NCBI GenBank assembly: GCA_051748565.1
Contig: JBNJHN010000002.1
Span: forward strand, 3,696 to 67,695
Reading direction: 5' to 3'
Length of the DNA: 64,000 bases
Source: Bacillota bacterium
GTDB lineage: Bacteria > Bacillota > Dethiobacteria > DTU022
The number at the start of each line of letters is the position of its first letter. Within the stretch, counting starts at the first letter, position 1. The notes beneath the pieces were generated by a model. The model was not told the origin of the DNA and ran no database searches. It saw only the letters and a program-made list of their open reading frames with translations. Below are positions 4,838-54,648 of this stretch, piece after piece. The position numbers and the translations under genes were made by a program.

Positions 4838-5482
4838 TTATTTCTTTTTTGGCGCCCGTAAAGGATATGTCAGCTGAACCAGAAAAAAGAAGCCGAAAAT
4901 AACAGGAAAACCGGCTGCCAGATGGTATTTTTTGCTGGTAGGCATAACTTCCCAAAACCCACGATAAAAACTTTGCCCGGATCTCTTCAGATCCGGACTG
5001 GGCATAGTTAATCTGACCTGCCCGGAACTATCTATAACAAGCATAGATTCACTGGCATTCTCGAGGGTGTTTTCCCGTTTACCTTCGTAGTCGACCCAGA
5101 TATGTGTCAATGAGATATTTTTATAGTAAGGAATCTCAAGTTCTTCCATTAAAGAAGCGAAAAGGAGGAAGCGGGCTTTGCAGTCACCCCTGCCGTTTTG
5201 CAGAACTTCGTCAAGAGTCGGGAAATACCAGGGCATGTTATAGACTTCCCAGTCATACTGGTAGGGAAGCTGGCTGTAAACGAAGGCCTGAATTTCATCC
5301 GGAGAATTATCCTGCAGCTGTTCGGCAATTTCAACAACATGGTATGGCATTAAGGGTGGATTTTTCAACCTGTAAACACTGGCTGCCAGGTGCCTGGGGT
5401 TTGGGTACAGCACCAGCAGGAACCATAAGGCCAGCATTATTAAGATGTATGAAAATCTCTTCAGATTGTTTTTGTTTCGCAA
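4838..5482 (-). CDS. membrane-anchored transglutaminase-like domain protein (hypothetical)
   Basis: N-terminal TM helix, then a G-D-C-K-A-R-F core that resembles transglutaminase-like cysteine protease motifs. Divergent from the NOX-like gene. Confidence 0.45.
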   Translation of the reverse strand: MRNKNNLKRFSYILIMLALWFLLVLYPNPRHLAASVYRLKNPPLMPYHVVEIAEQLQDNSPDEIQAFVYSQLPYQYDWEVYNMPWYFPTLDEVLQNGRGDCKARFLLFASLMEELEIPYYKNISLTHIWVDYEGKRENTLENASESMLVIDSSGQVRLTMPSPDLKRSGQSFYRGFWEVMPTSKKYHLAAGFPVIFGFFFLVQLTYPLRAPKKK

Positions 5483-5629
5483 TGTGGTTTACCCCTTTTA
5501 AATACTAACAACTATATTATACAGTAGTAAACAGCTGTTTGGCAACGTGATTGACAATAAACCTATTTATCAGGGTAGTGTTTGTATTGTAAGGGTATGT
5601 TTTATAAAATAAGGTAAGGAGGTGTTTGA

Positions 5630-6904
5630 ATGAAAGCGCGTCTGGCATTAACGGTCATTGTCATTATACTTGTGCTGACAATCATAATCTGGGCTTCCGC
5701 AATTGATTTTGAGCCCCTCAGCCTGGGTTACCTGAGGCATTTCGGCCTGTTGTTCGCCGCGGTTGGCCTGGTGTTGATTTTTATGCAGTTTGTTTTCGTT
5801 TCCCGAATTAAAGCAATTGAAAACGGCTTCGGTTTGGATCGGATGTTACGGTGGCACAGGTTTTTCGGGCGGTCCGGCCTTGGTTTTTTATGGTTGCATG
5901 CAGTCATGATTGTGCTATTTCGCTTAATTGAGTTCGGAGATTTATTCTTATCAACTTTCATCTGGGTTGGAGTAGCTGCCCTGCTTGGTTTTTCTGTTAC
6001 AGCCATGCTTGCTTCATTGTACAAGAAACTGGGTTTGCTATATGAAATCTGGCGTAATATTCACTTGTTCAACTATTTATTGTTCCCTTTTGTTTTAGTT
6101 CATGTTTTTTACTTTTCCGTCGGGGCCGGTTCATCGTTTTTACTTATCTGGATCCTCCTGGCTGTTTTTTATGCGTTTTTAATTGTCTATCGTATTGTAA
6201 GAATTTTAGCCATTAGGCGTAACCCCTATGAGGTTATCGGGGTTAAACAGGAAGCCGAAGATATCTGGAGCTTAATTTTTGAAGGTAAAAGGATTGATTT
6301 TCGGCCGGGGCAGTTCATGATCATCCAGCTTTTACGTAACGGCAGGCTTTCATCACCGCATCCTTTTACCATTTCAAACAGCCCCACCCGCGAGAATCTC
6401 TCGATAACCCCAAAAGAACTTGGCGACTTTACAAAGACCATTAAAGAAACCAGGGTTGGAGATCAGGCTTTCATCGATGCACCTTACGGTGTTTTCAGTT
6501 TCTTAAACTACTGGCAGGATGAACTTGTTTTCATAGCCGGTGGAATTGGGATTACCCCTTTTATAAGTATGCTGCGTTATATCTGCGATCAGAAGCTTAA
6601 TCTCAGGGCAACCCTTTTCTGGGCAAATCGTAATGAAAGCAGCCTCTGCTTCAGGGAAGAACTACGGGAAATGGAAAAAGAAATGGAGCAATTTAAAGCG
6701 ATACTGGTTATGTCCGACCAGCCTGACTGGCCCGGTGAGAAAGGTTTTATCAATACCGGTATGATCACCGATTACCTGGGTAATCTCAGCCAAAAAGACT
6801 TTTTTGTCTGTGGGCCGCCTCCGATGATCAAGGCCATAATTAAAGATTTAAAAAAACAAAAAGTTCTTTCCCCCAGGATTCATAACGAGATTTTTGAGCT
6901 TTAA
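5630..6904 (+). CDS. NOX/ferric-reductase-family flavocytochrome (6-TM bis-heme domain + FAD + NAD(P)H-binding domains)
   Basis: His pairs spaced 13-14 residues apart sit in two TM helices (WHRFF...WLHAV; IHLFN...LVHVF). It also has the HPFTIS FAD motif, the GGIGITPF NAD(P)H motif and a C-terminal CGPPPM. Its 424-aa length is like the minimal bacterial NOX homologues. Confidence 0.75.
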   Translation: MKARLALTVIVIILVLTIIIWASAIDFEPLSLGYLRHFGLLFAAVGLVLIFMQFVFVSRIKAIENGFGLDRMLRWHRFFGRSGLGFLWLHAVMIVLFRLIEFGDLFLSTFIWVGVAALLGFSVTAMLASLYKKLGLLYEIWRNIHLFNYLLFPFVLVHVFYFSVGAGSSFLLIWILLAVFYAFLIVYRIVRILAIRRNPYEVIGVKQEAEDIWSLIFEGKRIDFRPGQFMIIQLLRNGRLSSPHPFTISNSPTRENLSITPKELGDFTKTIKETRVGDQAFIDAPYGVFSFLNYWQDELVFIAGGIGITPFISMLRYICDQKLNLRATLFWANRNESSLCFREELREMEKEMEQFKAILVMSDQPDWPGEKGFINTGMITDYLGNLSQKDFFVCGPPPMIKAIIKDLKKQKVLSPRIHNEIFEL

Positions 6905-6956: not shown

Positions 6957-8582
6957 TTGAATTATATATTTTACAATGGCCGGGTTGTGACTGTGGAGGG
7001 TGATAAAGAGTCAGCAACAGCTGTCGCTGTAAAGGGCAACAAAATTTTTGCTATTGGCAGAGATGAAGAGATCCTTGCTCTTGCTAACAATGGGACGGAG
7101 CTAACAGACCTGGGTGGGAGATCTTTGCTGCCCGGTTTTAATGACAGCCACCTTCATTTAATCGGTTATGCGCTTAATGCGGCGAAAGTTAATTTGAGTC
7201 AAAGCAGGAGCATAGAGCACGTTGTGGGAGAGATTCAAAACTTTATAATTGAGCGTGAAATTGAAAAAGGTCAATGGGTGCTCGGTTGGGGCTGGAATCA
7301 AAGTCTTTTTGAAGAAGGTAGGATGCCAAACCGCCATGATCTTGACCGGGCTGCCCCTGATAACCCACTTTTGATCATGCGCACCTGCTGTCACATCAGT
7401 TCGGTAAATACAATTGCTTTAAAACAAGCCGGGATATATTCAAATCCGCCTATCTTTGATGGAGGTACTGTGGAAACTGGAGTTGACGGGGTTTCAACCG
7501 GGGTTTTAAAAGAAAAGGCGATATCACTGGTTATGGATTTAATTTCATCAGCGGATACCGATATGCTGAAAGATTTAATTAAAGCGGCAGCAAATGATTT
7601 TCTGGCTGCAGGATTGACTTCAGTGCAGACTGATGACCTGGCAGCTCTCGGCAGTAAAAAATTGCCCGAACTTATCCAGGCTTACCGCGATCTTGAAACT
7701 TCAGGGAGTTTGGGACTGCGCGTTAATCTACAACCACTGTTAATGACAATTGATGAGCTGCACTCTTTTCTTGAGCTTGGCTGCAGGACCGGCCAGGGTA
7801 GTGAATTTTTTAAAATCGGCCCCTTGAAATTGCTGACAGATGGTTCAATTGGCGGCCGGACAGCGCTGCTTTCGGCCCCTTATGCAGATAGTACCGTTAA
7901 CTGTGGAATAGCAGTTTTATCGCGGGATGAACTTAAAAAACTGGTCGAACTTGCTCACAAAAACGGGATGCAGATTGCTGCCCATGCCATCGGGGATGCG
8001 GCGATAGATATGGTGCTTGATATATATGAGGATGTGAGTCGCCAATATTTTCGTTTTGATCCCCGGTTCAGGATAATCCATGTCTCGGTGGTCAGGCATG
8101 ACCAGCTCGAACGCTTCAGGATACAGGACGTAATTGCCGACATTCAACCATCTTTTATCCCTTCAGACTATGGTCTGGTTGATCTGCACCTTGGTAAGGA
8201 GCGGGCATCATGGACATACCGCTGGAAAGATTTTGTGAAGTGTAACATAAAAACGGCTTGTGGCTCTGATTGCCCCGTAGAAAGTTATAAGCCGCTTGAT
8301 GGAATCTATGCCGCAATGACCAGGCAGGACAAAAAGGGTTATCCTCCCGGTGGTTGGTTTCCAGAGCAGAAGTTGGATTTGAACGAGGTTTTGCATATGT
8401 ATACTATGGGTTCGGCTTACTGCAGTTTTGAAGAAGATATAAAAGGAAGCATAAAGGCCGGAAAGCTGGCCGATATGGTAGTTTTATCCGGGAACATTAC
8501 TGCGACCGAACCGGAGATGATTAAAAATCTAACGGTCGACCTGACTATGGTTGACGGAAAGATTGTTTACAGGCGTCAATAA
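6957..8582 (+). CDS. amidohydrolase family protein (amidohydrolase-3 type)
   Basis: HLH metal motif near the N-terminus (NDSHLHLIGY) and a C-terminal ...GSD..V....P... region. TTG start with an AAAGGAG SD. Confidence 0.72.
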   Translation: MNYIFYNGRVVTVEGDKESATAVAVKGNKIFAIGRDEEILALANNGTELTDLGGRSLLPGFNDSHLHLIGYALNAAKVNLSQSRSIEHVVGEIQNFIIEREIEKGQWVLGWGWNQSLFEEGRMPNRHDLDRAAPDNPLLIMRTCCHISSVNTIALKQAGIYSNPPIFDGGTVETGVDGVSTGVLKEKAISLVMDLISSADTDMLKDLIKAAANDFLAAGLTSVQTDDLAALGSKKLPELIQAYRDLETSGSLGLRVNLQPLLMTIDELHSFLELGCRTGQGSEFFKIGPLKLLTDGSIGGRTALLSAPYADSTVNCGIAVLSRDELKKLVELAHKNGMQIAAHAIGDAAIDMVLDIYEDVSRQYFRFDPRFRIIHVSVVRHDQLERFRIQDVIADIQPSFIPSDYGLVDLHLGKERASWTYRWKDFVKCNIKTACGSDCPVESYKPLDGIYAAMTRQDKKGYPPGGWFPEQKLDLNEVLHMYTMGSAYCSFEEDIKGSIKAGKLADMVVLSGNITATEPEMIKNLTVDLTMVDGKIVYRRQ

Positions 8583-12708: not shown

Positions 12709-15700
12709 ATGATGAGTTTATCGAAAATAGCAGTTAAAAGACCTGTGGCAACCGGAACGATACTGCTGTTAATATTGTTGATCGGTTCGGTCAGTCTTTA
12801 CCAGAGTCCTCTTGACCTGCTGCCCGATATCCAGCCCCCGGTGCTGGCGGTGATAACTGTATTTCCGGGCAGTTCTCCCCAGGAAACTCTTGAACTGGTT
12901 ACCCGGCCGGTGGAAGAAGGGGTATCTGCTGTCAGCGGCCTGACCAATCTAAATTCTTTTTCCCAGGAAAACCTTTCTCTTGTGATTATGCAGTTTGATT
13001 GGGGTATGGATATCAACAGGGTCCGTGAAGATGTTAATGTGCGTATGGATTTGCTTAATTTACCCGACGGGGTCCAGCGGCCGATGGTTCTCAAATTTGA
13101 TCCGACCCTGATGCCAATTATGGTTGTTTCGGCCAGTGGAAGCAATGATAAGGTTCACTTAACCGAATGGCTTGAAGACACCGTATCTCCGAGACTCGAT
13201 TCGATCCCAGGCGTGGCCAGCGTACAGGTCCAGGGTGGAGCGGAACAAGATCTTTTTGTCCGCACTTCACCTGACACAATGGCCGAGTATGAAGTATCAT
13301 TTGAACAGATTGCCAATGTGCTGCGGGCCAGCCTGGTAGATTTGCCGGCCGGAATTATTGATCTCGAGGATCGTCAGGTGAGGATTCGATTTCTGGGTCG
13401 CTATGCAGAAGTAGAAATGCTTTCCGATCTGGTTGTTGGATTCCAGGTTGACCAGGATGCTCTTGAAGAGATGATCGGTCGGGAAGTTGATATAGATTTA
13501 AACCGGATGCTCGCCGGGCAGGATAATATCTTATCAGGTGGCATTGGCGGAGGATTTAGCCAGGTGCCGATGCGGGAAATATACTGGGATGATATTTTTG
13601 ATTTTAAAAGAGCTGTAATTTCCGCCGGAAAGCTTTTAATTCCCTTGAACGAAGAGTGGGCAGCCCGGCATGATCAAGAAGTTGAAAGCAGGCTGTTTCT
13701 CTTTACAGCCAATCCCCATATAAGTTACGAGCCGGAAAAATTACTCATGAATCTTTCTTTGACTTCTTTGGGCAGATCTCGCTTAGATGACAGTACAGTC
13801 AGCCTGGAGGATATTTGGATTATAGAACAAGCCGTCTGGGACAGCAACCGGATTATTGTTCCAATTGATCCGGTAAGCATGGATCTTTATGCTTTAGATG
13901 CTGCGGATCTTTCTGCCTTGGCCGAAAGCAATCCCCTCGTCATAGGGTCCGGCAGCAATTATCTGCTGGTTGCATTTCATGAAAACTGGGAAAATATCCG
14001 CAGTAAACCTATTGTTTCACTGCCTGATTACGGCGCCTGGCTTTCAAACGTGCAGAGTGAAGTGGCAAAGGGGGTTGACGATGCTACGCGTCGCCTCGAG
14101 GATAGTCTTAGCGATTTGGCCACTACAATGATTCTAAGCTCTATGAACCAGGGTCCTTCCAATTTTGCCGGGTTTGAATTTGACGGCGATTTTCCGATAA
14201 ACCCTGTATCCCTGGGTATGCTGGCAGAGATCGAGCAGGATATTTACAGCCCGACAACTATAACACGCTTTAACCGGCAGCCCAGTATCAGCCTGGTAAT
14301 TCAAAAAGAAGGCGATGCCAATACAGTGCTGGTTTCCCGTCAGATCAGGGGTGTTCTTGACCAGCTTTCTGAAGAGAGTACAGCGGGTTTCTCCCGGGTA
14401 ACCTTTAGCACCGTTTTAGATCAGGCGGAAGAGATTGAGCGGGCTTTGGCCGACCTGGCCTGGGCATTGGCCGGCGGGGCCCTTCTGGCCATTATAGTGT
14501 TGATTTTATTCCTGCGAAACTGGCGTACTACAATGTTCATTGGTTTAAGTATCCCGGTAGCAATCATTGCCACTTTTACACTTCTCTATTTTGCCAACCT
14601 GACTATTAACCTGATGACCCTGGGTGGATTGGCCCTGGCGGCAGGCATGCTTGTAGACAATGCCATTGTTGTCAGTGAAAATATTTTTCGGCGTTACCAG
14701 ATGGGTGAAAATCCTTCGGAAGCATCCGTAAACGGCGCACGGGAGGTTGCAGGAGCCATTACCGCTTCTACGCTGACTACAATAAGCGTCTTTTTCCCCG
14801 TTGTATTTATTAGCGGCCTGGCCGGTCAGATTTTCTGGGAATTTGCCTTAACCGTGGCCTGTGCAATTCTTGCTTCACTTTTAGTCGCCCTGACAGTAAT
14901 TCCTCTTTTAGCTTCACGCTCACTGGGCCTTCACCATCAAAGACATGCTGAGAGCTTTAGCACATCACGCTTGCCTACTTATCGTTCCCTTCTTAAATTG
15001 GCTGTACGTCATCCCTGGTGGGTGCTTATATTTGCCGCTTTTTTTATTGCAATGGGAGCCATCGGTTTTACAACATTGGGAACTGAACTTTTCCCGCCAA
15101 CAGATGAATCATCATTTACGATTAGCATTTCTCTTCTCCCCGGTACTACCCTGGCGATTACAGATGCTTACTCGACTGAAGCGGAAAAGATCCTGGAGAA
15201 CAGGGTGGGAGTTGCTTCCTTCTCGACTACAGTTGGTGGATCCGGCTTCTTAAACATGTTTGGCGGGGGTGGTTCTTCGAATCAGTCCAGCATCAGTGTG
15301 AAAATTGATCCGGATCATATTGGGGATATAGATCGGATCATTGCAGAAGTCAGGCGAGATATGCTGGCCTTGCCGGTAGAAGCAGATCTGAGCTTTTCCA
15401 GGGATTCCGTGCTTGATACTGCCGGACTGGAAAGCGGCCTTGACCTGGTGGTGAGCGGCCCCGATCTGGATCAGATCATTGCTATAACCGGCCAGGCGGT
15501 GCAGGTTCTGTCAGAGAACCCGCAATTTACCGATGTTCAATCTTCGCTTGAAGAGAGCCGTCCGGAAATACATATTCGTTTAGATCAAAGCCAGGCCTTG
15601 CAGAAAGGTGTGACCCAGGTTCAGGTAGCTACAGCAGTTCGTCAGGCACTCGAGGGTATCCCGGTCAGTCGAATTGAGACCGAAGCAGGCATACTGAGCA

Positions 15701-16731
15701 TAATTCTCGGATATCAAAAAAGCGATATTAAGACAATTGAAGACCTTGCCCGGATCGGTTTTTATACACCTGCCGGTGAATTCCTGCACCTGGATGAAAT
15801 TGCTACTTTGACTGAAAATTTTGGGCCCCGGAGTATACCCCGTGAGAATCAAATGGTGGTCGGCCAGATCCAATTGCAGTATGGCGCACTTGATCTCGGC
15901 ATGGCTACAAGCCTTGCTTTAGAAGAACTGGAAGTAATAACTCTGCCGAATGGATATGAAATCAAGCCTGCAGGCAGCTTTACCCTTATGGGAGATGTAC
16001 TTTCAGAGCTGGAACTGGTCCTGTTTATGGCTGCCCTGCTGGTCTACCTGGTCATGGCAGCCCAGTTTGAATCGCTGCTGCACCCGTTTATCATTATCTG
16101 TACTTTACCGCTGGCCTACACCGGTTCGGTAATTGCCCTTATGATTACCGGTAATAGCATCAGTATCCCTGCCATGATCGGCGTAGTGGTTCTTTCAGGT
16201 ATCCTTGTCAATGACGGAATTATTATGGTCGATTTCATTAATCAGCAAAGAAGACTGCACGGTCTTGGCCTGCAGGAAGCAATTATTGAAGGAGCTGTTG
16301 CCCGTTTGAGGCCGATCCTGATGACAACTGCTACAACTGTGCTGGGGCTGATTCCACTGGCTTTAGGCCTGGGAGAAGGAAGTCAACTCCAGGCACCGAT
16401 GGCTATAACGATCATTGGGGGCCAAATCACGGGAACCATTCTGCTCCTTCTGGCCATTCCCTCTATTTATAAAGTTCTGACCCGGGAGACGGCAGAACAA
16501 AGAGACAAGTATGCAGAGGAAGAAGCGCCAGAATCTCTGGCGGCAGCAGGTGGTGGAGCAGGCGTATCGATTCCCGCCCGCGGGCAAAAAAGCAATCATC
16601 AACTCCTGAAAAGTAAAGATAAGCCTCTATTTATACTTATCCTGCGTATGGTAATTGTGCTCATTTTGGCGGCGGTTATTTTAATCCTGCTCGGGACTTC
16701 CGGGCAGGAACTGCTGACTGTAATTCAGTAA
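12709..16731 (+). CDS. RND superfamily efflux permease (AcrB/HAE-like), atypically long
   Basis: 12 core TM helices flank two large periplasmic loops, and conserved RND TM motifs are present. Loop 1 is about 550 aa, roughly 250 aa longer than the AcrB norm. There is also a roughly 100-aa C-terminal extension with an extra hydrophobic helix. Confidence 0.85.
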   Translation: MMSLSKIAVKRPVATGTILLLILLIGSVSLYQSPLDLLPDIQPPVLAVITVFPGSSPQETLELVTRPVEEGVSAVSGLTNLNSFSQENLSLVIMQFDWGMDINRVREDVNVRMDLLNLPDGVQRPMVLKFDPTLMPIMVVSASGSNDKVHLTEWLEDTVSPRLDSIPGVASVQVQGGAEQDLFVRTSPDTMAEYEVSFEQIANVLRASLVDLPAGIIDLEDRQVRIRFLGRYAEVEMLSDLVVGFQVDQDALEEMIGREVDIDLNRMLAGQDNILSGGIGGGFSQVPMREIYWDDIFDFKRAVISAGKLLIPLNEEWAARHDQEVESRLFLFTANPHISYEPEKLLMNLSLTSLGRSRLDDSTVSLEDIWIIEQAVWDSNRIIVPIDPVSMDLYALDAADLSALAESNPLVIGSGSNYLLVAFHENWENIRSKPIVSLPDYGAWLSNVQSEVAKGVDDATRRLEDSLSDLATTMILSSMNQGPSNFAGFEFDGDFPINPVSLGMLAEIEQDIYSPTTITRFNRQPSISLVIQKEGDANTVLVSRQIRGVLDQLSEESTAGFSRVTFSTVLDQAEEIERALADLAWALAGGALLAIIVLILFLRNWRTTMFIGLSIPVAIIATFTLLYFANLTINLMTLGGLALAAGMLVDNAIVVSENIFRRYQMGENPSEASVNGAREVAGAITASTLTTISVFFPVVFISGLAGQIFWEFALTVACAILASLLVALTVIPLLASRSLGLHHQRHAESFSTSRLPTYRSLLKLAVRHPWWVLIFAAFFIAMGAIGFTTLGTELFPPTDESSFTISISLLPGTTLAITDAYSTEAEKILENRVGVASFSTTVGGSGFLNMFGGGGSSNQSSISVKIDPDHIGDIDRIIAEVRRDMLALPVEADLSFSRDSVLDTAGLESGLDLVVSGPDLDQIIAITGQAVQVLSENPQFTDVQSSLEESRPEIHIRLDQSQALQKGVTQVQVATAVRQALEGIPVSRIETEAGILSIILGYQKSDIKTIEDLARIGFYTPAGEFLHLDEIATLTENFGPRSIPRENQMVVGQIQLQYGALDLGMATSLALEELEVITLPNGYEIKPAGSFTLMGDVLSELELVLFMAALLVYLVMAAQFESLLHPFIIICTLPLAYTGSVIALMITGNSISIPAMIGVVVLSGILVNDGIIMVDFINQQRRLHGLGLQEAIIEGAVARLRPILMTTATTVLGLIPLALGLGEGSQLQAPMAITIIGGQITGTILLLLAIPSIYKVLTRETAEQRDKYAEEEAPESLAAAGGGAGVSIPARGQKSNHQLLKSKDKPLFILILRMVIVLILAAVILILLGTSGQELLTVIQ

Positions 16732-16785
16732 CAGCTGAAGAACCGGTTCTTATAGAATCATAGTGCAAGAAAGGAGGAATCACTA

Positions 16786-17424
16786 ATGGAGGTAGTAAAT
16801 CATCAGAAAAGAGAAGCGGGCAAAAAGAAAGAACAGATCCTGTTGGCGGCAGTGGAGATGTTCCTGGATAAAGACTTTTACCAGGTGACTATAGTCGAGA
16901 TTGCCGAACGGGCCGGAGTCGGTAAAGGAACCGTTTATGAATATTTTTCCAGCAAAGAAGACCTCTTTAAAGAAAGTTTCTCTTACTGTGCCGAAGCATA
17001 TCTCCAATCATTCAGGCAGCATTTAACTGAACCGGCATCGGTAAAAAAAACCATGCATGATATAGTCAGGACCCACCTTGAACTGATAAAAGACAATCGC
17101 AAAAGATTGCACCTTCTCTTCAATGAGCGGCCCCTGAGCTTTCAGGAATTGCAATCCTGGGTTCTCGACAGGCGCCAGGAACTACTTCAGGGTATCGCTT
17201 CCTTAATCGATGAAGGCATTAATTTGAAAGAAGTTCGGCCTGATATTGATGTTGAAATGGCAGCACGTCTTTTTCTTGCCCTCAACTATGTAGTGATGGG
17301 CGGCATGGTTATATTGGACAATGTTGAAGTAGGGGAAGAACAGATATCCACCCTGCTTGACATATATTGGAATGGAATAGGCAATAACCTGGCAGCACCC
17401 GGCCTTCAAGATCCGAAATCCTAA
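16786..17424 (+). CDS. TetR/AcrR family transcriptional regulator
   Basis: N-terminal HTH (AGVGKGTVYEYFSSKEDLF), located immediately downstream of the RND gene. Confidence 0.85.
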   Translation: MEVVNHQKREAGKKKEQILLAAVEMFLDKDFYQVTIVEIAERAGVGKGTVYEYFSSKEDLFKESFSYCAEAYLQSFRQHLTEPASVKKTMHDIVRTHLELIKDNRKRLHLLFNERPLSFQELQSWVLDRRQELLQGIASLIDEGINLKEVRPDIDVEMAARLFLALNYVVMGGMVILDNVEVGEEQISTLLDIYWNGIGNNLAAPGLQDPKS

Positions 17425-17505
17425 AGCCATGGTTCTTTTTAGGAGCCAGGCATTACTCTATCACGGGTTTGCCGTATTTCGTTTACCTGATTTATGTTGA
17501 TGCTT

Positions 17506-18702
17506 TTATTTCAAAGCAGCGCCAATTTCTTTGCCGTAATCAACGGCGGAGGCTATTTCTTCGTCACCGGGGCTCCAAAGCATTCTCAGCCCTTTTTTAT
17601 TGATCAGCTCAAAACCAGCATCTTCCAACATCTCACTGACCAGCTTAACCGATTCGCCGCTCCATCCGTAGCATCCAAAAGCTGCTCCTTTTTTCAGCTG
17701 AAAGTTTAAGCCCTTGGCCAAATCCATTAAAGCAGTGATCGAATGAAGGATACCCTTATTTACTGTCGGAGAACCGACTACAATACCTTTGGACTTGAAT
17801 ATTTCAGTGATTACATCATTGATATCCGAACGGGCGGCATTGTAGAGTTTAATATTTATTGTGTCGTTGGTTTCTTTTATACCTGCTGCAATTGCTTCGG
17901 CAGCTTTTCTGGTCCCGTCCCACATGGTGTCGTAGATCACTGTTACCTGGTTCTCCTGGTAGCTGTCGGCCCATTCCAGGTACTTATTTACAATCTGCAG
18001 GGGATCTTCACGCCAGATAACCCCATGACTGGGACAGATCATATCCACAGGTAGCCCTAACCCGACTACCTCTTTTATTTTAGCGCTAACCAGTTTACTG
18101 AAAGGGGTAAGGATATTGGCATAATACTTAATTGCTTCCTCAAAGAGCTCGCATTGATCTACCAGATCATTATACATAAGCTCACTGGCGTAGTGTTGAC
18201 CGAAAGCATCGTTGGGGAACAATATATTATCTTCGGTCAGGTAACAGAACATGCTATCGGGCCAGTGCAGCATTTTCGCTTCAATAAAGATGAGCTCTTT
18301 GCCGCCCAGGTCGATTTTGTCGCCGGTCTTTACCGGCTGGAAATTCCAGTCCTGGTGGTATTGACCGCGCAGTGACTTAACGCCAGCCCCGCTGCAGTAT
18401 ACCGGGGTGCCCGGTATCTCACGCAGTAGTTCAGGCAGGGAACCGCTATGATCAACTTCGCCATGATTGGCGATAATATAATCAATCTCTTTTAAATTAA
18501 TTTCCCTTTTAAGCTTAGTAACGAACTCTTCAGCAAAGGGACGCCAGACCGTATCGATCAAAACAATTTTATCTTTTCCTCTGACCAGGTATGAGTTATA
18601 GGAACTTCCTCTGTGAGCGCTCAACTCCTCACCATGAAATTTGCGCAGTTCCCAATCAATTTTTCCTACCCAGGTTATATTATCGTTAACCTTGAATGCC
18701 AT
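17506..18702 (-). CDS. flavodiiron protein (FprA / rubredoxin:oxygen oxidoreductase type A)
   Basis: Metallo-beta-lactamase-like diiron domain (ANHGEVDHSGSLP) followed by a flavodoxin-like domain. 398 aa. Confidence 0.85.
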   Translation of the reverse strand: MAFKVNDNITWVGKIDWELRKFHGEELSAHRGSSYNSYLVRGKDKIVLIDTVWRPFAEEFVTKLKREINLKEIDYIIANHGEVDHSGSLPELLREIPGTPVYCSGAGVKSLRGQYHQDWNFQPVKTGDKIDLGGKELIFIEAKMLHWPDSMFCYLTEDNILFPNDAFGQHYASELMYNDLVDQCELFEEAIKYYANILTPFSKLVSAKIKEVVGLGLPVDMICPSHGVIWREDPLQIVNKYLEWADSYQENQVTVIYDTMWDGTRKAAEAIAAGIKETNDTINIKLYNAARSDINDVITEIFKSKGIVVGSPTVNKGILHSITALMDLAKGLNFQLKKGAAFGCYGWSGESVKLVSEMLEDAGFELINKKGLRMLWSPGDEEIASAVDYGKEIGAALK

Positions 18703-22288: not shown

Positions 22289-23146
22289 TCAAGTTGTTTT
22301 AGTTTTCTGCTGCGGCCTGGTGAAGCGATTAATCAGCGGTACCAGCAGATTCATGCCGATAATAGCAAAGGTGGTTCCTTCGGGAAGCCAACCCCACAGG
22401 CGCATCGTCATGATGATTAATCCAACCCCGAATCCGAAAATATAACGGCCTGGTTGTGTTTTGGGTGAAGAAACCGGATCGGTGGCCATAAAGAAAGCTC
22501 CCAGGATCAGGCTGCCTGAGAAAAAGTGAAAGAGTATATTCTGACCTGTCAGCAAACAGACGATAACCACAGCTGCCAGGACGCTGACGGGAATACGCCA
22601 GTTGGCGTAACGCTTATATATAAGCCAGGCACCACCGATTAGCAGCAGGAGAGCCGAACTTTCACCCAGGCTGCCCGGAATTACCCCGATGAAAAGTTCA
22701 TATATTGGTGTTAGAGTCCCCTCACTGCGAAATATTTGCAGAGGAGTAGCTGTGCTTAAACCGTCAATCGGTGTCAGCCATGGGGACATTGTTCCCGGGA
22801 AAGCATATATGATAAACAACCTGCCGAAAAGTGCAGGATTGAAAATATTCTTACCGTAACCGCCGAAGGCCTGTTTACCTATTACAATACCGACTACAGA
22901 ACCTACCGCTACAACATAAAGCGGCAGGGATGGTGAAACAGTAAGAGCCAGCAGCAGGCCGGTAACTACGGCGCTGAGGTCTTTTATCTTAAGCGGTTTT
23001 TTCGTAATATATTGATAAAGTGCTTCCGAGGCTACAGCCGCAGCTACGCCAACAATGATTAAAAGTACAGCATCAAGGCGATATAAATAGATGGCAAAAA
23101 GCGCTGCGGGTGCCAGTGCAATTAGCATCCCTTTCATCATTTTCAT
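22289..23146 (-). CDS. RnfD/NqrB-family membrane protein (orphan)
   Basis: GGYGKNIFNPALFGR and FMATDPVSSP motifs characteristic of RnfD/NqrB. No other rnf/nqr genes are nearby. Confidence 0.7.
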   Translation of the reverse strand: MKMMKGMLIALAPAALFAIYLYRLDAVLLIIVGVAAAVASEALYQYITKKPLKIKDLSAVVTGLLLALTVSPSLPLYVVAVGSVVGIVIGKQAFGGYGKNIFNPALFGRLFIIYAFPGTMSPWLTPIDGLSTATPLQIFRSEGTLTPIYELFIGVIPGSLGESSALLLLIGGAWLIYKRYANWRIPVSVLAAVVIVCLLTGQNILFHFFSGSLILGAFFMATDPVSSPKTQPGRYIFGFGVGLIIMTMRLWGWLPEGTTFAIIGMNLLVPLINRFTRPQQKTKTT

Positions 23147-23300
23147 AAAGATTCCTCCTCTTGTGTATATCCTGATTATAGAATAGAAAAGCCGAATCGA
23201 TCAACAACCGGATCTTTTTTCCGGCAGGACCGCTAACCTTTTTGTAGAATTATTAAGATAAGTAGACATGACTTTCTAATGGGGAAGGAGAATGGGGAAT

Positions 23301-25631
23301 ATGGAGGTGTATAAACATATCGGGAATTCTTTGCCCCGAAAAGATGGTGAAGATAAAGTCAGGGGTAAACTCCGATATCTTGGAGACAGGCAGTCGCCAC
23401 AGATGCTGCATGCGGCAATTAAAACCAGTCCGCATGCCCATGCCCAGATCATTAAGGTCGATACCAGTGCCGCTTTAGAAACTCCGGGAGTCAGGACTGT
23501 ACTTACCGGCGAGGATATTCCCGGAAATATCGGGATCTATCTTGGAGATAAACCGCCCTTAGCCCGCCAAAAAGTTCGCCATTATGGTGAACCGGTAGCA
23601 GCTGTCGTTGCCGACAGCGAAGCGGAAGCAAAAGCAGCCCTCCCGTTAATAAATGTTGAATATAAAACCTTACCGGTGGTTCGCTCCCCCTCCGAGTCCC
23701 TGGCCGAAGATGCTCCCCTGCTTCACGAGGATATGGATAGCTACTCTCATATCCCGGCCATATTCCCTGAACCGGGCAGTAATGTATCTAACAGGACCAA
23801 AATTCGCAAGGGTGATATCGATTCCGGTTTTAATGCAAGCGAAACCGTTATTGAAGAATCATTCAGTTTTCCGCCGGGTGATCACGTGGCCATGGAAACA
23901 CGGGCTTCCACAGCTGAAATTTTAGATGATGGCCAGGTGATTATCCACTCTACCACCCAGGCGCCTTTTGTTGTCCGCAGCCTTTTAGGAGCTTCTTTTA
24001 ATCTTCCGACGGGTAAAATAACTGTTATTACAGCTCCACTCGGCGGGGGCTTCGGAGGCAAAGCCGGCATTCAGCTGGAAGGATTGGCCTATCTGCTTTC
24101 CAAGGCGGTCGGTGGCCGGCTGGTCCGGCTGGTTAACAGCAGGGAAAATGATTTGATTTCTTCTCCGGGGCGGACCGGGTTGGAGGCAAAAATCAGGCTG
24201 GGCTGCTCAAAGGATGGTAAACTGCAGGCTGCTGAAATTAATTACTGTTTTGACAGCGGTGCCTATGCTGACTATGCCGTTAATATCAGCCGGGCCGCAG
24301 CGATTGCCTGTACCGGCCCTTACGCATTACCCAATGTCTGGTGCGATTCCACCTGTGTATACACAAACCATCCTTTTGCCACTGCATATCGCGGATTTGG
24401 CCATATCGAACTCGCTTTTGCCATGGAACGGGCCATAGATTTACTGGCTGAAAAAGCGGGAATTGATCCCCTCGAATTCCGGATGATTAATGCGATCCGG
24501 AAAGGCGATACAACACCTACCCAGAGCGTAATGGATGATAATACCGGAGATTTGAGAAAGTGTCTGAAAAAGGTTTCGGGTATGCTTGAATGGGAGGAGG
24601 GTGCTCGGCAAAAGACGACCAATGGAAAAGTTCGGGCTAAAGGTGTAAGCTGCTTCTGGAAAGCACCTGCTATGCCGACCAACGCCGACGGTGGGGCTAT
24701 TCTCACATTTAACGAGGATGGCACAGTTAACCTGCACTGCGGTGCAATAGAAATCGGGCAGGGATTAAAGACTGCCCTCGCCCAGATCCTGGCAGAAAAG
24801 CTTGGCATGCATCCTGACCAGGTTCATGTTACAGATGAAGTCAGTACCCGTTCTGCTCCTCATGACTGGGCTACAGCTGCCAGCCGCAGTCTTTTTATGA
24901 TCGGCAGGGCTTTGATTGAGGCTGCCGACGATGCCATCAGTCAGATTAAACAAACGGCATCAATAGTCCTGCGCTGTCCGCCGGAAGATCTGCAGGTATC
25001 CGGAGGTCGGGTTTTTTTGGCAGATGAACCGGATACAGGCTTACCTGTTGCTGATGTTGCCCTGGGTTATATGTTTCCTAATGGAAATGCCGTACAGGGG
25101 CAGGTTATTGGTGTTGGGCGATATATCTCACGCTTACTGACTGCGATAGATCCGGAAAGTGGTGCAGGCCGCCCGGCTCTTGAATGGACCATGGGAGCCC
25201 AGGGTGTAGAGGTTGAGCTCGATCCTTCTGACGGCACCTACCGGGTCTTAAAAGCCGTATGTTCCATGGATGTTGGTAAGGTAATCAACCCTTTCCTGGC
25301 CCGCGGACAGGTGGTTGGCGGTATGTCTATGGGACTCGGTTTTGCCGGTTGGGAAAGTTTTACACTTAACAGCCAGGGTCGGGTTATAAATGATAGCCTG
25401 AGGAACTATAAAATATTGCGCTACGGCGAAGAACCTGCTTACCAGGTTGAATTTGTAGAAACCCTTCAGCGCGACGGTCCTTACGGTGCCCGCGGTTTAG
25501 GGGAGCAGGGTGTTCTCGGTATGCCCGGCGCCCTGGCCGGAGCTTTGTCACGCGCCATAGGGCAGCCGCTTAAACAACTGCCGCTAACGCCACAGAAAAT
25601 CTGGGAAGCAGGAAAGGAGGCAGACAAATGA
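23301..25631 (+). CDS. xanthine dehydrogenase/aldehyde oxidase-family molybdopterin-binding large subunit
   Basis: a/b-hammerhead plus MoCo-binding domains, 779 aa. The ATG at 23301 has better SD spacing than the one at 23292. Confidence 0.85.
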   Translation: MEVYKHIGNSLPRKDGEDKVRGKLRYLGDRQSPQMLHAAIKTSPHAHAQIIKVDTSAALETPGVRTVLTGEDIPGNIGIYLGDKPPLARQKVRHYGEPVAAVVADSEAEAKAALPLINVEYKTLPVVRSPSESLAEDAPLLHEDMDSYSHIPAIFPEPGSNVSNRTKIRKGDIDSGFNASETVIEESFSFPPGDHVAMETRASTAEILDDGQVIIHSTTQAPFVVRSLLGASFNLPTGKITVITAPLGGGFGGKAGIQLEGLAYLLSKAVGGRLVRLVNSRENDLISSPGRTGLEAKIRLGCSKDGKLQAAEINYCFDSGAYADYAVNISRAAAIACTGPYALPNVWCDSTCVYTNHPFATAYRGFGHIELAFAMERAIDLLAEKAGIDPLEFRMINAIRKGDTTPTQSVMDDNTGDLRKCLKKVSGMLEWEEGARQKTTNGKVRAKGVSCFWKAPAMPTNADGGAILTFNEDGTVNLHCGAIEIGQGLKTALAQILAEKLGMHPDQVHVTDEVSTRSAPHDWATAASRSLFMIGRALIEAADDAISQIKQTASIVLRCPPEDLQVSGGRVFLADEPDTGLPVADVALGYMFPNGNAVQGQVIGVGRYISRLLTAIDPESGAGRPALEWTMGAQGVEVELDPSDGTYRVLKAVCSMDVGKVINPFLARGQVVGGMSMGLGFAGWESFTLNSQGRVINDSLRNYKILRYGEEPAYQVEFVETLQRDGPYGARGLGEQGVLGMPGALAGALSRAIGQPLKQLPLTPQKIWEAGKEADK

Positions 25632-26461
25632 TTCCTTTTGACCTGGAATATTATGCCCCTGAAAGCACGAAAGAAGCTGTTTTAATTTACGCCGAGCTGG
25701 CCGATTCCGGTAAAGAGCCTGTTTACTATGCTGGAGGCACTGAAATTGTTACTTTCTGCCGCCAGCAAAAAATTAAACCTGGTGCCCTGATCGATCTGAA
25801 AGAAATTGAGGAAACCGTTACGCTTGGGTTCGATGGTGAAAAATTAATCCTGGGAGCTAATACTACTCTCACATCTCTTTCTGAACAGGATTATTTCCCG
25901 CTTCTTGCCAATGTGGCCAGGGGAGTTGCCGACCGAACCACGCGCAATCGTTTGACCCTGGGCGGGAATATCTGCGGGCGGCTGCCCTATCGGGAAGCAA
26001 TCCTGCCCCTGCTAACTGCCGGCGCCGAGGTTGTCCTGGCAGACGGAGAAGGTCATCGCACCGAACCTCTTAGTGAGCTCTTTGATAAAAGACTCAGGTT
26101 GGAAAAAGGAGAAATTTTAGTTCAACTGGTTGTTGCCATGCAAGAATTGGGGAATAATAGTTGGGTCAGGCGCCGTGTCAGACATGGTCCGGTTGACTAT
26201 CCTCTCTGCCACATGGTTGGTGTTGAAAAGGAAAATTATATTGCTGTCGCAGTAAGCGGCCTATGTGCTTTTCCATTCCGAAGTGAGGAAATTGAAAAAG
26301 TGATTAATGATACTGACCTCTCAGCACAGGAAAAGGTTGAGAAATCCACTGCCCTGCTGCCGGGGGCCGTCCGCAGCGATGAGCTCGGCTCAGATGATTA
26401 CCGCCTGGCGCTCTGGCAGAAAGACCTGGCAGAAATGCTGGATTATGTGGAGGGAATATAG
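25628..26461 (+). CDS. molybdopterin dehydrogenase FAD-binding subunit (CoxM/XdhB-like)
   Basis: Opens with the motif YYAGGTEI, and is translationally coupled to the large subunit (ATGA overlap). Confidence 0.8.
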   Translation: MIPFDLEYYAPESTKEAVLIYAELADSGKEPVYYAGGTEIVTFCRQQKIKPGALIDLKEIEETVTLGFDGEKLILGANTTLTSLSEQDYFPLLANVARGVADRTTRNRLTLGGNICGRLPYREAILPLLTAGAEVVLADGEGHRTEPLSELFDKRLRLEKGEILVQLVVAMQELGNNSWVRRRVRHGPVDYPLCHMVGVEKENYIAVAVSGLCAFPFRSEEIEKVINDTDLSAQEKVEKSTALLPGAVRSDELGSDDYRLALWQKDLAEMLDYVEGI

Positions 26462-26463
26462 CG

Positions 26464-29128: not shown

Positions 29129-29174
29129 TTTTTTGTTTGACAATAATCTAATGATGAAAGGAGAGAGGACCAAC

Positions 29175-53586: not shown

Positions 53587-53778
53587 TTATACTGTGTCCG
53601 GTACAGCCTGGAATTCATCCTTATCTGCGCCACAAACGGGGCATTTCCAGTCGTCTGGTATTTCTTCAAAGGCAGTTCCCGGCACAATGCCGTTTTCAGG
53701 GTCTCCGATCTCCGGTTCGTAAGTATAATCACAGAGTTCACATACATAACTTTGCATCAAATTAATCCTCCTAAACAT
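53587..53778 (-). CDS. rd: rubredoxin
   Basis: CxxC...CPxCG ([10 protein letters not shown]...[13 protein letters not shown]). Confidence 0.85.
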
Positions 53779-54646: not shown

Positions 54647-54648
54647 CT

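What the first reader, a model, noticed from the sequence alone, without database searches (positions are those of the whole stretch)
5630..6904. Compact bacterial NOX-like flavocytochrome in an apparent anaerobe
It combines a 6-TM ferric-reductase domain whose two bis-His pairs have the 13-14 residue spacing that defines NOX/FRE haem ligation with HPFT (FAD), GGIGITPF (NADPH) and CGPPPM motifs, in 424 aa. That is the minimal architecture of the recently characterised prokaryotic NOX homologues. A superoxide- or metal-reducing NOX enzyme is unexpected in a genome otherwise stocked with O2/ROS-scavenging genes (FprA, rubrerythrin, rubredoxin). It is divergent from a transglutaminase-like membrane protein and flanked by two amidohydrolase paralogues.
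Basis: partly seen in the sequence, partly recalled or inferred. Interest (0 to 1): 0.5.

Follow-up and report, generated by a model that had tools for sequence, protein, structure and literature searches.

The report
SpNOX-type flavocytochrome in an anaerobe
This gene encodes a small membrane enzyme of the known bacterial NADPH-oxidase-like (SpNOX) family, which passes electrons from NAD(P)H inside the cell through two haems to the outer surface; finding it in an oxygen-avoiding bacterium is ordinary for the family and mainly adds to published doubts that oxygen is its natural substrate.

Summary
ORF 5630-6904 (+) encodes a 424-aa protein with six TM helices, two bis-His pairs (H76/H90 in TM3, H145/H158 in TM5), HPFT, GGIGITPF, CGPPPM and a C-terminal Phe. 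It matches full-length SpNOX by sequence (E 1.4e-23) and by fold (AF2 pLDDT 92; TM-score 0.74-0.82).

All four His are conserved in every aligned sequence among 120 homologues, so the MsrQ-like single-haem rival fails.

The protein is not new. It is 100% identical to NCBI MGM0688030.1, named "ferredoxin reductase family protein". The family has 876 cluster representatives at E<=1e-30. The named closest relatives are anaerobic Bacillota (soda-lake Syntrophomonadaceae MAGs, Dethiobacter).

I found no partner gene conserved across the family. The amidohydrolases and the transglutaminase-like gene travel only with lineage-level synteny.

The protein lacks the eukaryotic O2-centre His and the putative SpNOX O2-site residues, and its outer loops are minimal. 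Some relatives at 36-45% identity are fused to extracytoplasmic cytochrome c or cupredoxin domains. This fits published SpNOX data (direct anaerobic cytochrome c reduction, exposed outer haem).

I read it as an NAD(P)H-driven outward electron conduit whose physiological acceptor is probably not O2. The acceptor remains untested. Verdict: new member of a known kind, with modest interest.

The parts
5582..5610 (+). Promoter-like element: TTGTAT, 17 nt spacer, TAAAAT (extended TTTTATAAAAT)
   Evidence: Read from the sequence. The TTTG..T and T(T)TATA(A/G)AAT blocks are the only invariant blocks in the alignment of 8 orthologous upstream regions. The simple consensus scan did not list it, so it is an inferred promoter.
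5615..5623 (+). Ribosome-binding site AAGGAGGTG, with AAGGAGG ending 6 nt before the ATG
   Evidence: Sequence. The GGAGG/GGGGG core is conserved in all 8 orthologous loci.
5630..6904 (+). CDS of the 424-aa SpNOX-type flavocytochrome (stop codon included)
   Evidence: ORF list. Pfam Ferric_reduct + FAD_binding_8 + NAD_binding_1/6. SpNOX 8qq7/8qta/8qt6 at E ~1e-23 over residues 43-414. AF2 pLDDT 92, pTM 0.87. Foldseek top hits are SpNOX, TM-score 0.74-0.82. 100% identical to NCBI MGM0688030.1.
5630..6220 (+). Six-helix transmembrane ferric-reductase domain (aa 1-197). Predicted N-terminus inside; outer loops of 8, 6 and 5 residues
   Evidence: Model helices 2-24, 33-57, 69-102, 109-134, 148-164 and 170-197. 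The outer loops have 0 Lys/Arg in total, while two of the three inner segments counted have 1-2 Lys/Arg. By my reading of the sequence, the N-terminus (MKAR) and the helix ends flanking the inner loops are also basic. Pfam Ferric_reduct covers aa 44-154.
5855..5857 (+). H76 (TM3), inferred inner-haem ligand; equals SpNOX H69
   Evidence: His in all 120 aligned sequences (1 gap); aligned to SpNOX H69. Ligand role in SpNOX from PMC11564096.
5897..5899 (+). H90 (TM3), inferred outer-haem ligand; equals SpNOX H83
   Evidence: His in all 120 aligned sequences (1 gap). The residue at +4 is I94 and is never His in the family, so the eukaryotic NOX2 H119-type O2-centre His is absent.
6062..6064 (+). 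H145 (TM5), inferred inner-haem ligand; equals SpNOX H129
   Evidence: Invariant in 121/121.
6101..6103 (+). H158 (TM5), inferred outer-haem ligand; equals SpNOX H142
   Evidence: Invariant in 121/121.
6221..6517 (+). FAD-binding lobe of the cytoplasmic dehydrogenase domain (aa 198-296), including HPFT at 6359-6370
   Evidence: Pfam FAD_binding_8 covers aa 222-274. H244, P245 and F246 are invariant. The sequence passes the Hajjar FAD filter H[PSA]F[TS][LIMV]. The D-loop residues Y138/R142 equal the SpNOX FAD contacts Y122/R126.
6518..6901 (+). NAD(P)H-binding lobe (aa 297-424): GGIGITPF 6539-6562, CGPPPM 6809-6826, gating F422 6893-6895
   Evidence: Pfam NAD_binding_1 at 1.6e-23, aa 301-403. 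G304, G305, G307, T309, P310, C394, G395, E420 and F422 are invariant. K262/S362 equal the SpNOX NAD(P)H contacts K250/S348. E420-x-F422 corresponds to the SpNOX C-terminus ...E-G-F397 read from the published primers.
4838..5482 (-). Context only: divergently transcribed 214-aa two-TM protein with a weak transglutaminase-core-like motif
   Evidence: ORF. Pfam Transglut_core is sub-threshold, E 0.078. Orthologue found upstream of the NOX-like gene in 6 of the 8 closest loci searched by tblastn, a degraded remnant in L007 and none in L006. An unannotated 238-aa minus-strand gene sits at the same place in L015 (homology not tested). Absent in the Dethiobacter locus and other clades.
6957..8582 (+). 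Context only: Amidohydro_3 gene 52 nt downstream. It may be co-transcribed but is not a conserved partner
   Evidence: Pfam 7.8e-106. Present directly downstream in L001, L004, L012 and L015. Not found in the sequence held for L002 and L007, and absent from the more distant loci.

Best explanation
The gene encodes a constitutive, single-polypeptide transmembrane electron conduit of the SpNOX type.

Proposed mechanism:
- NAD(P)H binds the cytoplasmic FNR-like lobe once F422 moves aside, and it transfers a hydride to FAD.
- FAD passes single electrons to an inner b haem (H76/H145).
- The inner haem passes them to an outer b haem (H90/H158).
- The outer haem sits under very short loops and is therefore solvent-exposed. 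It reduces a one-electron acceptor on the outer face of the membrane.

What is shown here: the architecture, conservation of all cofactor-binding residues, the topology, and the fold match to SpNOX.

What is inferred: actual haem and FAD loading, activity, and the acceptor.

My committed reading on the acceptor is that, in this anaerobic Bacillota MAG, the physiological acceptor is an extracytoplasmic oxidant other than O2. The candidates are a chelated metal such as Fe(III), or a soluble or surface redox protein. O2 would then be an opportunistic side acceptor during transient oxygen exposure.
For: Identity and mechanism
- Four Pfam domains lie in NOX order.
- Full-length SpNOX matches at E 1.4e-23 with 27% identity.
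- The AF2 model has pLDDT 92, and the best Foldseek hits are SpNOX at TM-score 0.74-0.82, ahead of NOX2, NOX5 and DUOX.
- H76, H90, H145, H158, HPF, GGxGxTP, CG and F422 are invariant across the family.
- SpNOX FAD and NAD(P)H contacts are conserved: Y122/R126/K250/S348 equal Y138/R142/K262/S362.
- The loop charge pattern supports a cytoplasmic DH domain: no Lys/Arg in any outer loop.

Acceptor other than O2
- The named closest relatives are from anaerobic lineages: soda-lake Syntrophomonadaceae MAGs, Dethiobacter alkaliphilus and a Desulfobacteraceae MAG.
- The window carries an anaerobe-type gene set: FprA, rubredoxin, rubrerythrin, and a selenocysteine formate dehydrogenase with NuoEF-like subunits.
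- The eukaryotic O2-centre His (NOX2 H119) is replaced by I94 and is never His in the family.
- The putative SpNOX O2-site residues N84/S86/N101/Y105 are not conserved.
- The outer loops are only 8, 6 and 5 residues long.
- Relatives are fused to extracytoplasmic one-electron carriers with consistent topology. P0122 (44% identity over the core) has three CxxCH cytochrome c domains between an N-terminal signal or anchor helix and TM2. P0123 has one CxxCH. P0155 has one cytochrome c domain. P0154 has an extra TM helix and a cupredoxin after the DH domain.
- The cytochrome c fusion recurs in 8 clusters at 90% identity. In L013 it is followed by a 925-aa five-CxxCH lipoprotein.
Against: - No biochemical data exist for this protein or its subfamily.
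- SpNOX does reduce O2 in vitro, and its ferric reductase activity is very weak (kcat 0.05 s-1).
- The window protein has no fused carrier.
- The 64-kb window holds no c-type cytochrome. I also found no FMN_bind, ApbE, Feo or VIT1 gene among the 57 ORFs scanned against Pfam, which cover nearly all plausible genes of at least 110 aa. No candidate acceptor or iron-uptake link is therefore visible locally.
- In another sub-clade (L010, L016) the gene is followed by a class-I disulfide reductase and MsrA. That points to oxidative-stress biology, where O2 or ROS could be relevant.
- A conserved Arg at the outer end of TM2 (R36, 104 of 121 sequences) could play the role of the NOX2 R54-type residue near the outer haem.
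- The fusion evidence comes from relatives at 36-45% identity in other phyla and may not transfer to this protein.
Confidence: 0.55

Rival explanations
1. It is a genuine NAD(P)H oxidase. O2 is the physiological acceptor at the outer haem, giving extracellular superoxide or H2O2. The purpose would be either to consume O2 at the cell surface during transient oxygen exposure or to generate ROS as a signal or weapon.
For: - SpNOX, the closest characterised relative, consumes O2 and produces superoxide in vitro.
- The genome invests in O2/ROS defence: FprA, rubredoxin, rubrerythrin and ferritin. FprA stays syntenic about 10 kb away in L007.
- In L010 and L016 the orthologue sits next to a disulfide reductase and MsrA.
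- R36 is conserved at the outer end of TM2.
Against: - The lineage is anaerobic.
- Making superoxide outside the cell is not protective in itself.
- The NOX2 H119/T178 signature is absent, and the putative SpNOX O2-site residues are not conserved.
- Mutating those residues in SpNOX did not change activity, and its authors doubt that O2 is the physiological acceptor.
- Relatives are fused to cytochrome c or cupredoxin.
Confidence: 0.28
2. It is a membrane NAD(P)H:quinone, flavin or other non-surface reductase. The haems would deliver electrons to menaquinone within the membrane, or the FNR lobe would act mainly as a soluble-type flavin reductase with the TM domain serving as an anchor.
For: - MsrQ, the FRD relative, is quinone-linked and carries a ubiquinone cofactor (title and abstract of PMC12525009).
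- NCBIfam gives only sub-threshold hits to flavin and ferredoxin reductases.
Against: - Conservation of both haem pairs in every aligned homologue, and of the B- and D-loop residues that couple FAD to the inner haem, argues that transmembrane transfer is the selected function.
- I identified no quinone-site motif.
- The fusions place carriers outside the membrane, not within it.
Confidence: 0.1
3. It is an MsrQ/YedZ-like single-haem subunit that serves a periplasmic or exoplasmic molybdoenzyme (MsrP).
For: It shares the Pfam Ferric_reduct domain. MsrA genes lie near orthologues in L010 and L016.
Against: - YedZ/STEAP proteins replace the first canonical His with Arg and lack the DH domain. Here H76 is conserved in every aligned homologue, all four His are present, and the DH domain is fused.
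- I found no MsrP/YedY-type molybdoenzyme next to the gene in any of the loci whose gene tables I examined.
Confidence: 0.02

Closest known systems
SpNOX, the Streptococcus pneumoniae NADPH oxidase (PDB 8qq7, 8qt6, 8qta; Hajjar 2017, PMC5676040; Petit-Hartlein 2024, PMC11031084; Dubach 2024, PMC11564096)
   Same: - About 400-424 aa with no regulatory domains.
- Six TM helices, with H-x13-H in TM3 and H-x12-H in TM5.
- HPF(T/S) and GGIGITPF motifs, CGP, and a C-terminal gating Phe.
- D-loop Tyr/Arg and NAD(P)H-contact Lys/Ser conserved.
- Short outer loops.
- Best sequence and fold match.
   Different: - Only 27% identity. SpNOX falls outside the 876 representatives at E<=1e-30, so this is a separate subfamily.
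- The putative SpNOX O2-site residues N84/S86/N101/Y105 are A91/M93/D104/S108 here.
- The host is an anaerobic Bacillota MAG, not an aerotolerant streptococcus.
- No biochemistry exists for this subfamily.
'MsrQ-like' PF01794 + PF00175 proteins of flavinylation-associated gene clusters (Meheust et al. 2021, PMC8238504)
   Same: Same Pfam architecture: Ferric_reduct followed by NAD_binding_1. Same proposed logic: cytosolic NAD(P)H as donor for extracytosolic reduction, with some members proposed to be assimilatory iron reductases.
   Different: - Those clusters are defined by a neighbouring ApbE and/or FMN_bind gene and are mostly actinobacterial.
- No such gene lies within five genes of the window gene, nor among the 57 window ORFs scanned against Pfam.
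- An FMN_bind gene does lie four genes downstream in the Dethiobacter-type loci L008 and L011.
Eukaryotic NOX/DUOX and FRE flavocytochromes (NOX2, NOX5, DUOX1; Zhang et al. 2013, PMC3591440)
   Same: Same FRD + FAD + NAD(P)H core and same four haem-ligating His. Structural similarity: TM-score normalised to the query about 0.70-0.71 to NOX2 and 0.53-0.57 to DUOX1 and NOX5.
   Different: - It lacks the NOX-specific His at +4 from the outer-haem ligand (I94). By my own positional alignment it also lacks the Thr of the TM4 Thr-Gly pair (V113-G114).
- It lacks the long extracellular loops, partner subunits and regulatory domains.
- The DH domain scores better with NAD_binding_1 than with the NOX/FRE-type NAD_binding_6.
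MsrQ/YedZ and short bacterial FRD proteins such as FrcB (as described in PMC3591440 and PMC9218516)
   Same: Homologous six-helix haem-binding membrane domain with an exposed outer haem face.
   Different: The short forms lack the fused dehydrogenase domain. YedZ replaces the first His with Arg and takes electrons from quinol or Fre. Here all four His and the DH domain are present.
Cytochrome c- or cupredoxin-fused relatives found here (P0122 group, P0123, P0155, P0154)
   Same: Same core at 36-45% identity with all four His. The TM2 Arg is also retained in P0122 and P0123.
   Different: They carry extracytoplasmic CxxCH or cupredoxin domains, and in L013 a neighbouring five-haem cytochrome c lipoprotein. 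The window protein has no fused or neighbouring carrier.

Membership tests
Prokaryotic NOX-like flavocytochromes (SpNOX type; filters of Hajjar et al. 2017) | FAD-binding motif H[PSA]F[TS][LIMV] | tested here: met
   HPFTI at aa 244-248. H244/P245/F246 are invariant in 121 sequences.
Prokaryotic NOX-like flavocytochromes (SpNOX type; filters of Hajjar et al. 2017) | [quoted passage not shown] | tested here: met
   GIGITP at aa 305-310. G305/G307/T309/P310 are invariant.
Prokaryotic NOX-like flavocytochromes (SpNOX type; filters of Hajjar et al. 2017) | Two His-x12/14-His pairs, at least 20 residues apart, in TM3 and TM5 | tested here: met
   H76-x13-H90 lies in helix 69-102 and H145-x12-H158 spans helices 138-146 and 148-164. 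All four are conserved in every aligned sequence among 120 homologues and aligned to SpNOX H69/H83/H129/H142.
Prokaryotic NOX-like flavocytochromes (SpNOX type; filters of Hajjar et al. 2017) | Six (3-7 predicted) transmembrane helices followed by a cytoplasmic FNR-like dehydrogenase domain | tested here: met
   The AF2 model has six long helices followed by a beta/alpha DH domain. The hydropathy and loop charge pattern agree. Pfam domain order agrees.
Prokaryotic NOX-like flavocytochromes (SpNOX type; filters of Hajjar et al. 2017) | Full-length sequence and fold similarity to the solved SpNOX structure, including the C-terminal gating aromatic residue (F397) | tested here: met
   phmmer E 1.4e-23 over aa 43-414. 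Foldseek E 5.7e-24, TM-score 0.78/0.82, rmsd 3.6 A. F422 is present in 120 of 121 aligned sequences (the other is a gap) and lies in E-x-F like SpNOX E-G-F397.
Prokaryotic NOX-like flavocytochromes (SpNOX type; filters of Hajjar et al. 2017) | Binds two b haems and FAD, and oxidises NAD(P)H with electron transfer to O2, cytochrome c or another acceptor | not testable with these tools
   This needs expression, pyridine haemochrome and flavin quantification, and activity assays.
ROS-generating NOX group, eukaryote type (signature of Zhang et al. 2013: NOX2 H101, H119, T178, G179) | Extra His four residues after the outer-haem ligand in TM3 (NOX2 H119) | tested here: not met
   Position H90+4 is I94. 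Across 121 sequences the five commonest residues (I, L, F, V, Y) account for 114, and none is His.
ROS-generating NOX group, eukaryote type (signature of Zhang et al. 2013: NOX2 H101, H119, T178, G179) | Thr-Gly dipeptide in TM4 (NOX2 T178-G179) | tested here: inconclusive
   G114 is nearly invariant (120 of 121) and is preceded by V/I/L/F/A, not Thr. However, the equivalence of G114 to NOX2 G179 rests on my own positional alignment using the NOX2 sequence recalled from memory, not on a tool alignment.
MsrQ/YedZ family | First canonical TM3 His replaced by Arg, no fused dehydrogenase domain, and an MsrP/YedY partner | tested here: not met
   H76 is conserved in every aligned homologue. The DH domain is fused. 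No MsrP-type gene lies next to the gene in the window or in the related loci whose gene tables I examined. The definition comes from PMC3591440.
Flavinylation-associated 'MsrQ-like' system (Meheust et al. 2021) | A PF01794 gene within a gene cluster that contains ApbE and/or a secreted FMN_bind protein (within five genes) | tested here: not met
   All neighbours within five genes were scanned against Pfam, and none is FMN_bind or ApbE. No flavinylation motif D[GAS]x[ST]GA[ST] occurs in any window ORF.

The most novel reading that the evidence does not exclude
SpNOX-type proteins of strict anaerobes, this one included, are not oxidases. They are minimal single-gene modules for NAD(P)H-driven extracytoplasmic electron transfer, and their exposed outer haem hands electrons to a redox protein or an insoluble or chelated oxidant such as Fe(III). 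The cytochrome c- and cupredoxin-fused relatives would be 'Rosetta stone' forms that reveal the ancestral partner type. In that case the family name 'bacterial NOX' would describe an in-vitro side reaction.
Probability: 0.35. Interest if true: 0.6.

Novelty: new member of a known kind. Interest (0 to 1): 0.3.

Why it matters
The physiological acceptor of bacterial NOX homologues is an acknowledged open question (Dubach 2024).

This locus does not answer it, but two by-products of the analysis make it more testable:
- A whole subfamily lives in obligately anaerobic Bacillota. One member, Dethiobacter alkaliphilus (P0096), is cultured to my knowledge.
- Relatives fused to, or adjacent to, extracytoplasmic c-type cytochromes or cupredoxin point to protein acceptors.

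If that is confirmed, these enzymes would be a very compact route for exporting cytoplasmic reducing equivalents. That is relevant to extracellular electron transfer and iron acquisition in anaerobes, and to how SpNOX is used as a model for eukaryotic NOX.

Tried and rejected
- **Conserved partner gene.** I compared 16 related loci. The transglutaminase-like gene and Amidohydro_3 travel with the gene only inside one lineage, where the pyr operon, Tex and the RND pump are also syntenic. They are absent in Dethiobacter-type, Clostridium-type and L010/L016-type loci. I rejected them as functional partners.
- **Regulatory operator upstream.** I looked for Fur, PerR or Rex-like sites. An alignment of 8 orthologous upstream regions conserved only the core promoter and the RBS, so I could draw no regulatory inference.
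- **Local acceptor or iron link.** Pfam scans covered 57 window ORFs, which is nearly all plausible genes of at least 110 aa. Motif scans covered CxxCH and the flavinylation motif. I found no cytochrome c, FMN_bind, ApbE, Feo or VIT1.
- **Exact look-up of the window protein's contigs** returned nothing. The identity to NCBI MGM0688030.1 came from the cluster look-up instead.
- **Literature search** for 'bacterial NOX' plus 'anaerobe' gave 0 papers.
- **NADH versus NADPH preference.** K262/S362 are conserved, but the third SpNOX contact (Y353) is F373 here and variable in the family. SpNOX itself uses both. This stays undetermined.
- **Phylogeny with MsrQ and FRE.** Diagnostic-residue tests and profile/fold ranking were used instead.
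- **SifR-regulated spd_0527.** I considered whether the S. pneumoniae 'fre' gene spd_0527 is SpNOX, which would link SpNOX to iron/catechol biology. I could not verify the locus equivalence, so I did not use it as evidence.
Full report
**1. Observation**

The ORF at 5630-6904 on the + strand is real. It has an ATG start, encodes 424 aa, and is preceded by an AAGGAGG ribosome-binding site. A conserved promoter-like TTGTAT-17-TAAAAT element lies upstream.

Pfam finds four domains, all above their curated cut-offs:
- Ferric_reduct, aa 44-154
- FAD_binding_8, aa 222-274
- NAD_binding_1, aa 301-403 (E 1.6e-23)
- NAD_binding_6, a weaker match

The haem-ligand candidates are H76/H90 (13 residues between) and H145/H158 (12 between). 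SpNOX has the same spacing.

NCBIfam gives only sub-threshold hits of the C-terminal half to FNR-type reductases, so no curated equivalog model names the protein.

**2. What it is**

The best solved relative by sequence is full-length Streptococcus pneumoniae NOX (8qq7/8qt6/8qta), at E about 1e-23 over residues 43-414. Identity is 27% in my alignment.

An AlphaFold2 model built from a 62-sequence alignment is confident (pLDDT 92, pTM 0.87). It shows six long helices followed by an FNR-like two-lobe domain. Foldseek against the PDB ranks the three SpNOX structures first (TM-score 0.74-0.82). Flavohaemoglobin and NqrF match the DH domain only. NOX2 reaches a query-normalised TM-score of about 0.70, and NOX5 and DUOX1 reach 0.53-0.57.

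In an alignment with 120 database homologues of at least 45% identity, several residues are invariant or nearly so:
- H76, H90, H145 and H158
- H244-P245-F246
- G304, G305, G307, T309 and P310
- C394-G395
- E420 and F422

Residues that the SpNOX papers show to contact FAD from the D-loop (Y122, R126) correspond to Y138 and R142. Residues that contact NAD(P)H (K250, S348) correspond to K262 and S362. F422 corresponds to the gating F397 of SpNOX.

The three outer loops are 8, 6 and 5 residues long and contain no Lys or Arg. Two of the three inner segments I counted carry Lys or Arg, which fits N-in topology with a cytoplasmic dehydrogenase domain.

**3. How common, and where**

The protein is 100% identical to NCBI MGM0688030.1, 'MAG: ferredoxin reductase family protein [Bacillota bacterium]', on a 77-kb contig.

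The word-indexed search found 1615 relatives at E<=1e-5. The exhaustive search of 50%-identity representatives found 876 at E<=1e-30 and 6465 at E<=1e-10.

The closest named relatives are:
- Syntrophomonadaceae MAGs, which I recognise from their isolate names as soda-lake sediment bins (63-64% identity)
- Dethiobacter alkaliphilus and Dethiobacter sp. (about 50%)
- A Clostridium sp. MAG
- A Desulfobacteraceae MAG (42%)

The window itself carries an anaerobe-type gene set:
- FprA, rubredoxin, rubrerythrin and ferritin
- A NuoE/NuoF-like pair followed by a formate dehydrogenase whose reading frame is interrupted by TGA in the classical CARL-U-HAPTV selenocysteine context
- A molybdenum hydroxylase
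- An RnfD-like gene

So the host is very probably an anaerobe. However, a NOX-like gene in such a host is normal for this subfamily rather than exceptional.

**4. Neighbourhood**

Both Amidohydro_3 genes lie downstream, so the gene is not flanked by them.

The block pyr operon, (Tex), transglutaminase-like gene (-), NOX-like gene, (Amidohydro_3), membrane protein, RND pump recurs in the close lineage down to about 51% identity. Individual members drop out of it. That is lineage-level synteny.

Other clades have different neighbours:
- Dethiobacter-type loci have a pyridoxal decarboxylase upstream and an FMN_bind gene four genes downstream. L008 also has two NapC/NirT cytochromes.
- The Clostridium-type locus shares nothing.
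- L010 and L016 have a class-I disulfide reductase (GGTCTNVGC motif) and MsrA immediately downstream.

No partner is conserved across the family. The gene appears to be a self-sufficient unit.

**5. Mechanism and acceptor**

The donor side and the transmembrane wire follow from the conserved anatomy: NAD(P)H to FAD, to the inner haem b, to the outer haem b.

The acceptor is the real unknown, as it is for SpNOX. Dubach et al. reported several relevant findings:
- Direct anaerobic reduction of cytochrome c and SOD
- A very exposed outer haem
- No eukaryote-type O2 centre
- No effect of mutating the putative O2 site
- An explicit statement that O2 may not be the physiological acceptor and that a protein acceptor may exist

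In the window protein, the eukaryotic signature His (NOX2 H119) is I94 and is never His in the family. The SpNOX candidate O2-site residues are not conserved.

Among the nearest 50%-identity cluster representatives, several carry extra redox domains whose predicted topology puts them outside the cell:
- P0122 (44% identity over the core) has three CxxCH cytochrome c domains between an N-terminal signal or anchor helix and TM2.
- P0123 has a CxxCH-containing N-terminal domain.
- P0155 has a cytochrome c domain plus an extra TM helix.
- P0154 has an extra TM helix and a cupredoxin after the DH domain.

The cytochrome c fusion recurs in eight 90%-identity clusters. In L013 it is followed by a five-haem cytochrome c lipoprotein.

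Together with the anaerobic host range, this makes a non-O2, extracytoplasmic one-electron acceptor the most likely physiological substrate. I put the full statement at about 0.55 and the conduit mechanism itself at about 0.9.

Evidence pointing the other way:
- SpNOX does reduce O2 in vitro, and its ferric reductase activity is weak.
- No candidate acceptor is encoded in the window.
- The disulfide-reductase and MsrA neighbours in another sub-clade suggest oxidative-stress biology.
- An Arg is conserved at the outer end of TM2 (R36).

**6. Comparison with known families**

The protein meets every sequence and structure criterion used to define prokaryotic NOX homologues (the Hajjar filters), and it is closest to SpNOX. 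It belongs to a distinct subfamily at 27% identity.

It has the same Pfam architecture as the 'MsrQ-like + NAD-binding' proteins of Meheust et al., but it lacks their defining ApbE/FMN_bind cluster. It is not MsrQ/YedZ, because the first His is retained and the DH domain is fused. It does not carry the eukaryotic ROS-generating signature.

**7. Verdict**

This is a correctly spotted, real and well-conserved gene, and a new member of a known, structurally characterised kind. It is already in public databases under a generic name.

Interest is modest (0.3). The anaerobe context and the cytochrome c and cupredoxin fusions sharpen an existing open question about the physiological acceptor of bacterial NOX homologues. 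This locus alone does not resolve it.

Noticed in passing
window 31016-33688 (+), in-frame TGA at 32054-32056; upstream genes 28475-28948 and 29133-31016: A formate dehydrogenase alpha subunit appears as two ORFs (346 + 539 aa) in one frame. They are separated by a TGA in the context IDHCARL-*-HAPTVAGL, the classical selenocysteine site. NuoE-like and NuoF-like genes precede it, which suggests an NAD-linked Sec-FDH.
   Followed up: partly
P0122/P0283-P0289 (L013:6001-8145), P0123, P0155, P0154: Relatives of the NOX-like core (36-45% identity) are fused to extracytoplasmic domains: three CxxCH cytochrome c domains, one CxxCH domain, one cytochrome c domain plus an extra TM helix, or a C-terminal TM helix plus cupredoxin. 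The cytochrome c fusion recurs in 8 clusters at 90% identity.
   Followed up: partly
L013:8228-11005 (+) and L013:13698-14145: Directly downstream of the cytochrome c-fused NOX-like gene lies a 925-aa lipoprotein with five CxxCH domains very similar to the fused ones. A second Ferric_reduct-domain gene starts at the end of the locus.
   Followed up: partly
L010:6001-9332 and L016:6001-9337: In two loci (45-49% identity to the window protein) the NOX-like gene is followed after a 18-22 nt gap by a class-I pyridine-nucleotide disulfide reductase (GGTCTNVGC motif) and then by an MsrA-domain gene. Carotenoid genes lie beyond these. This may be an oxidative-stress operon.
   Followed up: partly
window 4838-5482 (-): A 214-aa protein with N- and C-terminal TM helices carries a GDC...THIWVD motif resembling a transglutaminase-like Cys/His/Asp core. 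Pfam supports this only below threshold. It is conserved as the divergent neighbour of the NOX-like gene in most close relatives and is decayed to fragments in L007 (5674-5850).
   Followed up: partly
window 22289-23146 (-): A stand-alone RnfD/NqrB-family membrane protein (Pfam E 5.7e-100) has no other Rnf/Nqr subunits next to it. Its neighbours are a trypsin-like protease and a three-subunit molybdenum hydroxylase (23292-26943).
   Followed up: no
window 12709-18702: A 1340-aa RND (ACR_tran) transporter, a TetR regulator and a divergently oriented FprA flavodiiron protein form a block that is syntenic in L007 (70-83% identity).
   Followed up: partly
window 53587-55146 (-): Rubredoxin (classical CxxC...CxxC) and a rubrerythrin with a C-terminal rubredoxin-like domain lie on the same strand. 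A pyrimidine-dimer glycosylase/DUF1722 gene on the opposite strand sits between them.
   Followed up: partly
window 46878-47654 (-): An IS200/Y1-type transposase domain protein (258 aa) is the only mobile-element signature I saw in the window.
   Followed up: no
L008:11016-12812 and L011:8883-9284: In Dethiobacter-type loci an FMN_bind-domain gene lies four genes downstream of the NOX-like gene. In D. alkaliphilus two NapC/NirT-type cytochrome genes also lie there. This may link to flavinylated extracytosolic electron transfer.
   Followed up: no
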